From Eledone cirrhosa (Eukaryota), in the NCBI GenBank assembly GCA_964016885.1, contig OZ024749.1, forward strand, positions 52,700,001 to 52,764,000: DNA of 64,000 nucleotides, in the 5' to 3' direction. The notes below the pieces were generated by a model. That model did no database searches. It saw only the letters and a program-made list of their open reading frames with translations, and was not told the DNA's origin. The position numbers and the translations under genes are program-made. Shown here piece by piece: positions 9,301-12,300 of the stretch (positions are counted from its first letter, which is position 1; each line of letters starts with the position of its first letter).

Positions 9301-12300
9301 TCACTGGGATTTCTTGTTACCTGAAGTTTCAGAGATCATCATCATCATCATTTCTACAGCTGTATTCCACCCTGACATGGGTTGGACAGGTTGTCATGTG
9401 ACCATGTCTTGTTGTGAGGTTAGAGACCAGCACTAGACAGGTTGTCACACTAGTCTTCCTAGACTTGTCAGATCAGTCCTAATTACACTAATTATCTTAA
9501 TGAAGCCCAAGAAGTTCTATGACCAGCTAATTACTATATTAAGCCACTTAAATTCAATAGATACATCACATCATCAACGTTTAATGTCCATTTTTCCATG
9601 CTCGCATGGGTTAGACAGGGTCCTTCTACGATATTTCATTTTCAATACATGTTTCTCACAGTACACTACATAATGATCTCATTGTAATACTATATACATA
9701 TATATTGTGAAAACAATACCCTATATTTGTTGATGTGTACAATACAACAAGAATTTTAAGGCCATTTTCCTTTGATAAACAAGAAGTTAGCCCTGCAGAT
9801 TCTATGCAAGGTTTTATATTTATGATGGGGGGGGTCTTTTGAGGTGACGTTTAACAGTCACAAGTTCTTCCTGCTGGTAACCCTTTAACCCTTTAAATAA
9901 TCTCTTACAACATACAGGAATACTACTGTGTAACTATTCTAAACTTGACACACACACACAGTATATTAACTAACGTGTGTTGAAGGACCCTGTCCCCTTC
10001 CCAGCAAACCAGGAATTCATGAAATAAGATGAGATCAGTTGTCCAGCTGAATGTTTTAAAGCAATGATAGAAGACATTGCTGGCAGACTTACCTTGTCGT
10101 GCAATGTCCAACCAACATACTTCAAGTAACTATCATCAAGAAACATGTAAGGGTACTTTCTCATCCACACCCCGATCTCTGATGAACATATTGCTCTTAT
10201 TTCTGGCTGCGTATCCCTGAAAAAATGTCAGCATATTATCAACCCTTGACTTACCTTGTCATGCAATGTCCAACCGACGTACTTTAAGTAGCTATCATCT
10301 AAAAACATATTCGGGTACCTTCGCATCCATACCCCAATTTCTGTAGTACAGATTGACCTTATTTCTGGATGAGTATCTCTGAAACAGTACAGGAAAACCA
10401 CATTATAAGGCTTTCCCTTCAGTTGGTTAGCTCGACAAAATGGATATTATATGTCTAGCGTTTACTTCCTTTGTACTTTTAGTTGATTGGCTAGAGTGAT
10501 AGATCTTGTACCTGATTGGCTAGAGTGATAGATATTTTAGTTGACTGGGTGGCTAGAGTGAAAGATATTCTAGTTGACTGGGTGGGTAGAGCGACAAGAT
10601 ATTTTAGTTGAGTGGGTGGGTAGAGCGACAAGATATTTTAGTTGACTGGGTGGGTAGAGCGACAAGATATTTTAGTTGACTGGGTGGGTAGAGCGACAAG
10701 ATATTTTTCACCCTGTAGTTCAAATGTTCAAATAAATTACTGCTAACTTATAACAACATATTTTCCAATTCTTAATTCTTATTGTTTGTTAAATAGCAAA
10801 GACAGAAATGGAGAGTCATGCTAAATTGCTATTTATATATTTATTTGTTTAGTGTATATATATGTGTGTGTGTAATTAATGGAACTTTCTCTACTTATAC
10901 AGTTTGTGGCAGAATCTGCCAGTCAGAAGTGGACTTCAACCTCACATAAGACCACACAATAGGAGACTTCCTACTGACCTCAGAACATACCAACCAGTTC
11001 ACTAATATCAATGCCATATACATCTCAAAATATGCAAATCTGAAGGAGGTCTAAAGAGACATTTCATCAAGTTCATCAAGATCAGACACCACAAACAGTT
11101 CAAGTTGGACAAAAACTAATGTGCTATTTATGTGGACGGCTTTTTTAAAGGTATGTCTGGTCTAAAAAGCCACATAAGATCTCATGCCAGAACTCAAGAT
11201 CACGTAGACTGAAGCGTTTAAGCTTTGTATTGAGCAAACATATATATATGGTAAAGGAAAGAAGAGTGCTCTATGTATGTTACAGAGCTATTTAATTACA
11301 TAATAAATATTGTGTTGCTTATTATGTAATTAAATATATATACATATATATGTGAAGGCATGTGGCTGAGTGGTTAGAGAACTGGATTCGCAATCATGAG
11401 GTTGTCAGTTCGATGCATTATGTCCTTGAACAAGAAAGACACTTTATTTCACGCTGCTTCTTCTACCTGGAGTTGCGACCGATAGATAGTATTAGCAATT
11501 GGAAAGACCAACAGAAACATTGTTTCCTTGGTCCAATTAGATGAAAGTCGTTTGACAAAAAAAACTATATATATATACTCACTTAAAGATCGGCAAAGCA
11601 ATATTATGCTGATCAAAATTAAGCAAGTGACCACTACAAAGAAGATTCTTTACAGCAAACTGCCAAAAACTGACCAACCATATTCAAACAAAATATTCCT
11701 TACATCAAACTTTCAAAAGACTGACCAACTAGATTTAAACCTTTACCATTTATATTACTCTATATTTACTATTGTATTTTTACAGTAAAGTCTTTACCTC
11801 ACATAACATTTACATTACTCTATATATACTATTGTATTTTTACAGTAAAGTCTTTACCTCACATAATATTGAATCTGTTAAAAAATGGCAAAGGGCCAGA
11901 TGGTGGATGGTGTTGAATTAAACTTGGTAATGGATTAGTAATAGAACTTGAACCCTTGAACATTTACATTACTCTATATATAAATACGCCAAAACTACAC
12001 CTGATGTACCCCTTCCATACACATGCACACGTGTGTATCATGACTCATGCACTGTTCATTTTCCTGATGTTTGTACATTACCCTATGTACTATACATACA
12101 CTTTTTGATGAGTTGTAGTGCACCTGAGCACTGTACACAATATTTCATTATTATTATATACTATTGTGAAGGCGCATGGCTTAGTGGTTAGAGCATTGGG
12201 CTTGCAATTGAAAGGTTGTGAGTTCAATTCTCGGACCTGGTGATGTGTTGTTTCCTTGAACAAGACACTTTATTTCATGTTGCTCCAGTTTACTCAGCTG

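What the first reader, a model, noticed from the sequence alone, without database searches (positions are those of the whole stretch)
10093..10378. Tandem-duplicated, sterically mutually exclusive exons encoding the cohesin STAG conserved surface
Seen: two 124-nt exons with identical phases (2 to 0) and intact AG/GTAAGT sites. They differ at 6 of 41 residues (H/Q, S/A, T/S, T/S, R/K, N/Y). Their last 18 residues ([18 protein letters not shown]) are identical despite 6 synonymous codon differences, which points to selection on both copies. Only 38 nt separate them (gtaagtcaagggttgataatatgctgacattttttcag), and including both or neither would frameshift. Known: this part of the stromalin conserved domain (human SA2 D326/K330/W334 region) helps form the 'conserved essential surface' with RAD21 that binds F/YxF motifs of CTCF, shugoshin and WAPL; vertebrates diversify SA through the paralogs STAG1/2/3. 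Inference: one gene makes two SA isoforms by steric mutually exclusive splicing next to the regulator-docking site. I am not aware of this being described for STAG genes.
Basis: partly seen in the sequence, partly recalled or inferred. Interest (0 to 1): 0.9.

Follow-up and report, generated by a model that had tools for sequence, protein, structure and literature searches.

The report
Swappable cohesin exon in octopus, cuttlefish
Octopuses and cuttlefish carry two tandem copies of one core exon of their cohesin SA (STAG) gene and splice either one into the message, giving two proteins that differ at six residues beside, not in, the known regulator-docking pocket and that likely tune cohesin only subtly.

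Summary
Two 124-nt exons (A 10378-10255, B 10216-10093) sit 38 nt apart in the only SA/STAG locus found in this genome. They differ at 6 amino acids and 14 synonymous codons (dN/dS about 0.06).

Both exons are used. Spliced RNA contigs from related species join each to the same upstream exon. A's share of contig depth was about 11%, 25% and 59% in three runs. The one run of this species showed only B.

A/B isoform pairs are already present, without comment, in automatic annotations of three Octopus species and Sepia pharaonis, so the pair predates the octopus-cuttlefish split. It is absent from 25 of 25 other invertebrates' isoform sets and 78 of 78 non-cephalopod loci. Nautilus was not found.

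Every published docking-pocket residue in this exon is identical in A and B. The six changes lie on or beside the preceding helix, at positions that vary freely across animals.

Verdict: a real, old, apparently undescribed mutually exclusive exon pair of a known kind. A functional difference between the isoforms is untested.

The parts
10255..10378 (-). Exon A: upstream copy, 124 nt, phase 2 to 0, equals SA2 299-339; the minor isoform in 2 of 3 relatives' runs
   Evidence: contigs spliced to the upstream exon in X15 and X18; annotated A proteins in O. vulgaris, O. sinensis, O. bimaculoides and Sepia
10217..10254 (-). 38-nt intervening intron; candidate branch adenosines at 10239 (16 nt from the donor) and 10228 (27 nt); in-frame stop if retained
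   Evidence: same 13-codon spacing in unspliced read-through P0003 from another, unnamed source; branch point predicted from motif only
10093..10216 (-). Exon B: downstream copy, 124 nt; apparent default isoform
   Evidence: 3550-nt contig with 0 differences in X22, joins to the upstream exon in X14 and X15; 7 of 7 Logan proteins with the motif in the cuttlefish cluster carry B
22782..22855 (-). Constitutive upstream exon ending in the HRYR motif (SA2 H295/Y297/R298)
   Evidence: its 3' end matches the loose ends at 10219 and 10381
8273..8371 (-). Constitutive downstream exon
10277..10282 (-). Cryptic donor inside exon A; its use would give an in-frame A(32 aa)+B product through a 66-nt intron
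   Evidence: matches Sepia gene model P0137; no contig support among the rows shown
192..30010 (-). SA/STAG gene, coding exons for residues 1 to about 766; the gene continues off the left end of the window
   Evidence: tblastn of P0013; only SA locus found in G000

Best explanation
The genome's one detected SA/STAG gene holds a tandemly duplicated core exon whose two copies are spliced as alternatives in coleoid cephalopods, likely kept mutually exclusive by the too-short 38-nt intron, and giving two full-length isoforms that likely differ only on a surface beside the unchanged regulator-docking pocket. Shown: both copies are under purifying selection, each is spliced to the same upstream exon, and their proportions differ between runs. 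Inferred: U1 on A's donor and U2 on B's branch site (16-27 nt apart) cannot assemble together, and skipping both or including both whole gives early stops that NMD would remove. Inferred: B is the default and A is the regulated exon. Inferred: the six changes, on or beside the outer helix before the docking helix, fine-tune a secondary contact or modification site rather than F/YxF-motif binding itself. Odds by step: alternative use about 0.95, steric exclusion about 0.8, real functional difference about 0.55.
For: Selection: pS 0.62 (16/25.7 sites) against pN 0.072 (7/97.3), Fisher p 1.4e-8. All 5 cross-species exon differences that displayed are synonymous (101 table rows were not displayed). 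Splicing: loose ends matching the upstream exon behind both 10219 and 10381 in X15, behind 10219 in X14 and behind 10381 in X18. (A+B) depth over downstream-exon depth is 0.99, 0.96 and 0.87, as one exon per transcript predicts; A's share is 0.11, 0.25 and 0.59. Annotated pairs: O. sinensis X1 and X2 differ only at these six residues, as do O. bimaculoides X1 and X2. B is 41/41 and A 40/41 identical between octopods and Sepia. Structure: the AF2 model has helix 394-410 (exon positions 4-20) and helix 418-428 (positions 28-38). Positions 8 and 12 lie 142 and 178 degrees from the conserved helix face. The under-50-nt donor-branch criterion is from PMC5740500 passages; the under-40-nt intron limit in C. 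elegans is from PMC4165533 passages.
Against: Only contigs were available, no raw reads; the tool warns that contig depth is a poor measure of expression. The three ratios come from three different organisms with unknown tissues, so tissue regulation is not shown. Exon A was not seen in the own-species run X22 (contigs drop rare variants). The 8369-10253 joints have only 23-24 letters on the short side and cannot tell A from B. Absence of an A-to-B joint rests on 15 of 143 joints displayed. The six positions are among the most variable in 75 other segments (entropy ranks 1, 2, 3, 10, 11 and 14 of 41; p 6e-4) and most changes are conservative. The flanking region is nearly frozen in coleoids anyway (1 difference in residues 330-500), so keeping the differences does not prove they matter. 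The minimum intron size in cephalopods was not measured.
Confidence: 0.6

Rival explanations
1. The exons are mutually exclusive but the two proteins are functionally equivalent. Both copies persist because each carries a needed share of splicing, and the six differences drifted in early at tolerant sites.
For: The changed positions are the most variable in the family and mostly conservative. All known pocket residues are identical. The whole region is nearly invariant in coleoids, so stasis needs no special explanation.
Against: Two copies have been kept intact and distinct across the roughly 270-My coleoid clade (date from PMC13652810 passage). Each copy has its own derived residues relative to other molluscs (A: H3; B: A8, Y23). 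A's share ranges from 0.11 to 0.59 between runs.
Confidence: 0.28
2. One reading: the swap changes the affinity of the conserved essential surface for CTCF, shugoshin or WAPL, standing in for the vertebrate STAG paralogs.
For: The exon encodes the docking helix. Position 3 (SA2 301) is 3-4 residues from Y297/R298, and position 23 (SA2 321) is 5 residues from D326. Only one SA locus was found. Yeast mutants of this surface affect meiosis more than mitosis (PMC4175184 passage).
Against: None of the six positions appears among the contacts named in the passages of six papers. SA1 and SA2 are identical at all six. Atomic distances could not be measured here.
Confidence: 0.1
3. One copy is a dead duplicate or an assembly artefact.
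For: The own-species run X22 shows only B.
Against: The copies differ at 24 nucleotides with dN/dS about 0.06. Three DNA-like runs hold all sampled words of the stretch, though they may be the assembly's own source. A is spliced in relatives and conserved in cuttlefish.
Confidence: 0.02

Closest known systems
Homologous mutually exclusive exon pairs with steric interference (57 human clusters in PMC5740500; C. elegans egl-15, let-2 and bet-2 in PMC4165533; passages read)
   Same: Tandem homologous exons of equal length and phase, a donor-to-branch distance under 50 nt, and one apparent default exon plus one variable exon.
   Different: The host is a cohesin subunit. STAG1, STAG2 and STAG3 had 0 hits in the 10 supplement files held for the human catalogue. 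The exons are not a multiple of 3 nt, so NMD could back up steric exclusion; the five short-intron worm clusters are all multiples of 3.
Vertebrate STAG1 exon 31 / STAG2 exon 32 (30b) alternative splicing (PMC10238091, PMC4605304; passages read)
   Same: SA isoforms made by alternative splicing.
   Different: Those are cassette exons in the divergent C-terminal region. This is a swap of homologous exons inside the folded stromalin conserved domain.
Vertebrate SA1 and SA2 paralogs
   Same: Two SA variants in one organism with an intact docking pocket.
   Different: Here one gene gives both variants, with only six differences. SA1 and SA2 are identical at those six positions.
Automatic annotations of Octopus and Sepia SA isoforms (XP_029647952/3, XP_052830604/5, CAI9736490/1, CAE1269079/83)
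   Same: These records are the same A and B proteins.
   Different: They are machine annotations. No paper discussing them was found.

Membership tests
SA/STAG/Scc3 cohesin subunit | STAG (PF08514) and SCD (PF21581) domains in a collinear SA gene | tested here: met
Homologous mutually exclusive exon pair | Same length, same reading phase, canonical splice sites, sequence homology | tested here: met
Homologous mutually exclusive exon pair | Downstream exon B spliced to the upstream flank, bridging A | tested here: met
   loose ends at 10219 in X14 and X15 match the upstream exon
Homologous mutually exclusive exon pair | Upstream exon A spliced to the downstream flank, bridging B | tested here: inconclusive
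   A is joined to the upstream exon in X15 and X18, and A contigs end at its donor. The displayed 8369-10253 joints are too short to assign to A. Annotated A proteins continue into the downstream exon.
Homologous mutually exclusive exon pair | No A-to-B joined transcripts | tested here: inconclusive
   None among 15 of 143 joints displayed; depth sums of 0.87-0.99 fit one exon per transcript; contigs drop rare forms
Steric-interference MXE | Donor-to-branch-point distance under 50 nt | tested here: met
   The intron is 38 nt; candidate branch adenosines lie 16 and 27 nt from the donor
Steric-interference MXE | Experimentally mapped branch point and rescue of double inclusion by lengthening the intron | not testable with these tools
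   needs lariat sequencing or a minigene
Isoform switch of the conserved essential surface | Variable residues among documented pocket contacts | tested here: not met
   from passages only, no atomic coordinates
SA1/SA2-like diversification | A/B differences mirror SA1/SA2 differences | tested here: not met
   alignments: SA1 and SA2 differ only at exon positions 16, 38 and 41

The most novel reading that the evidence does not exclude
Coleoid cephalopods evolved a regulated splicing switch inside the folded core of their only SA subunit. It makes two cohesin types with different partner or release behaviour, for example neural versus germline or proliferating tissue, and does by splicing what vertebrates do with STAG paralogs. 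It arose on the same branch as the coleoid genome reorganisation.
Probability: 0.2. Interest if true: 0.8.

Novelty: new member of a known kind. Interest (0 to 1): 0.5.

Why it matters
The SA core is highly conserved, and the SA splicing described in the papers read affects only the divergent tail. An old, lineage-restricted exon swap inside the conserved domain offers a natural two-state experiment on a surface of SA with no partner named in those papers. It is testable: CRISPR works in Euprymna berryi, and coleoid chromatin loops vary by tissue and stage (PMC13652810 passages). If the isoforms prove equivalent, it remains a tidy case of a long-lived redundant exon pair.

Tried and rejected
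No RNA holder was listed as such by the run search; the laid runs are treated as RNA because their contigs are spliced.

Nautilus or vampire squid outgroup: none among the named hits (the best 120 of 176, 13 of 13, and the best 120 of 2626 listed), so the upper age bound is 'after the split from other molluscs'. No cephalopod locus turned up in the metagenome scan, so there was no DNA-level cross-species alignment of the intron.

RNA-structure control of exon choice: the 421-nt region folds no better than shuffles (z -1.27). Among the 25 longest of 78 inverted repeats, only one 18-nt pair touches A's acceptor, and its partner is in low-complexity intron sequence. Not pursued.

Gene conversion of the 3' ends: rejected, because pS is 0.61 there against 0.63 in the 5' part.

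The primary CTCF-SA2-SCC1 structure paper was not obtained. Complex prediction was not run, because a textbook pair would pass by likeness and could not separate six conservative changes. Earlier scan findings: none.

Full report
1. Observation. The two exons are as described: A 10378-10255 and B 10216-10093 on the minus strand, 124 nt each and 100/124 identical, with AG acceptors, GTAAGT donors and a 38-nt intron between them. They differ at 6 residues and 14 synonymous codons. Both score as Pfam SCD and align to human SA2 residues 299-339. An Octopus SA protein maps across 192-30010 exon by exon, and only this exon matches twice. Searches of the own genome with exon A, PF21581 and PF08514 found only this locus (the tool's counts are lower bounds). 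By protein identity the genome is an octopus-like coleoid.

2. Selection. Nei-Gojobori counts between A and B give pS 0.62 and pN 0.072 (dS 1.32, dN 0.076; Fisher p 1.4e-8). Synonymous divergence is the same in the 5' and 3' parts (0.63 and 0.61), so the identical last 18 residues reflect selection, not gene conversion. All 5 exon differences displayed for related species are synonymous; 101 rows of that table were not displayed.

3. Both exons are spliced. Four of the 24 listed runs were laid; all are contigs. In X15, contigs ending at both acceptors (10219 and 10381) continue with the upstream exon's end. X14 shows this for B and X18 for A. X14, X15 and X18 each hold separate A and B contigs, with depths 132.9/1086.3, 337.7/1012.8 and 440.3/311.2. 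A's share is therefore 0.11, 0.25 and 0.59, and A+B equals 0.99, 0.96 and 0.87 of the downstream exon's depth. These are three different organisms with unknown tissues, and contig depth is a rough measure, so regulation is suggested but not shown. X22, labelled the same organism as the full holders and possibly the assembly's own project, has a 3550-nt contig with B at 0 differences and no cover of most of A. That is not evidence of absence. The joints from 8369 to 10253 are too short to assign to A. No A-to-B joint appears among the 15 of 143 joints displayed.

4. Age and distribution. Annotated proteins with A and with B exist for O. sinensis, O. vulgaris, O. bimaculoides and Sepia pharaonis. 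The O. sinensis pair and the O. bimaculoides pair each differ only at the six residues. B is identical between octopods and Sepia, and A differs at one residue (K20). Core SA divergence between octopods and decapods is 3.5-3.8%, and 1 residue in 330-500. The single Argonauta protein and 7 of 7 unnamed Logan proteins with the motif in the cuttlefish cluster carry B. An unspliced read-through (P0003) keeps the 13-codon spacing between the exons. In contrast, 0 of 25 non-cephalopod species with two or more listed proteins (20 molluscs) show a second exon type (member lists were capped at 15 per cluster). Also 0 of 78 metagenome loci hold a second copy. Of these, 38 have the same stand-alone exon with introns on both sides and 33 have at least 300 nt of flank on each side, but they represent only 7 distinct sequences. 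Nautilus was not found. The duplication therefore falls between the split from other molluscs and the coleoid crown (about 270 Ma, PMC13652810 passage). Against the common gastropod sequence, both copies share R19, H39 and a polar residue at 11, and each has its own changes (A: H3; B: A8, Y23), so neither is simply the ancestral copy.

5. Mechanism (inferred). Candidate branch adenosines lie 16 and 27 nt from A's donor, below the 50-nt criterion used for human clusters (PMC5740500 passages). The intron is also below the 40-nt limit described for C. elegans (PMC4165533 passages). Skipping both exons meets a stop after 8 codons of the next exon, including both whole meets a stop inside B, and intron retention meets a stop inside the intron; NMD would be the backup. 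One leak is possible: a cryptic donor at 10282 would join 96 nt of A to B in frame through a 66-nt intron, which is what one Sepia gene model shows. No unusual RNA structure was found.

6. Where the changes lie. The AF2 model (local pLDDT 86-94) places exon positions 4-20 on one helix and 28-38 on the next. Contacts named for SGO1, CENP-U, WAPL, ANKRD11 and PAGR1 are SA2 H295, Y297, R298, D326, S327, L329, K330, Y331, W334, L366, F367, R370 and F371 (passages of PMC10279526, PMC11182772, PMC11331136, PMC11789155, 10.64898/2026.09.14.751543 and 10.1101/2023.04.14.536858). None is among the variable positions 301, 306, 309, 310, 318 and 321. Positions 8 and 12 face away from the conserved side of the first helix, 11 and 20 flank it, 3 precedes the helix and 23 is in the loop. 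The six positions are among the most variable in 75 other segments, and human SA1 and SA2 are identical at all six. A rim effect from positions 3 or 23 cannot be excluded without coordinates. The original CTCF-bound and SA2-SCC1 structure papers were not read.

7. Comparison with what is known. The mechanism class is established. SA splicing described in the papers read concerns C-terminal cassette exons (PMC10238091 and PMC4605304 passages). Six searches found no description of this exon pair. Searches returned nothing. One search returned 3 papers (one checked by passages, two seen only as listings). One search listed 3 (one checked by passages). One search listed 2 unrelated titles. The library lacks most subscription papers. 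STAG1, STAG2 and STAG3 were absent from the 10 supplement files held for the human catalogue; other dataset files may exist that were not seen.

8. Verdict. A real and apparently coleoid-specific mutually exclusive exon pair inside the SA conserved domain, visible in automatic annotations but with no description found. It is a new member of a known kind. The docking pocket is unchanged, and a functional difference is plausible but untested. Interest 0.5.

Noticed in passing
window 10217-10254 and P0003: Retaining the 38-nt intron keeps the reading frame. Here and in an O. bimaculoides model (P0150) it ends at a stop, but in the unnamed source of P0003 it reads through without a stop, giving a tandem A+B peptide.
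   Followed up: partly
window 10282; P0137: A Sepia gene model joins 32 residues of A to B through a cryptic donor that is also present in this window; no contig support was seen.
   Followed up: partly
P0227, P0228: Two Lonchura SA-2 database models contain an identical internal repeat of this segment 260-280 residues apart, probably an assembly or annotation artefact.
   Followed up: no
P0013 versus P0123/P0125 (outside the window): Octopus SA also has C-terminal isoforms differing by a 9-residue segment.
   Followed up: no
L077-L079: Some arthropod-like loci have an extra intron inside the W334 helix of this segment.
   Followed up: no
window 8443-9220: The intron downstream of B holds a multi-copy repeat with several inverted arms that many contigs match.
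   Followed up: no
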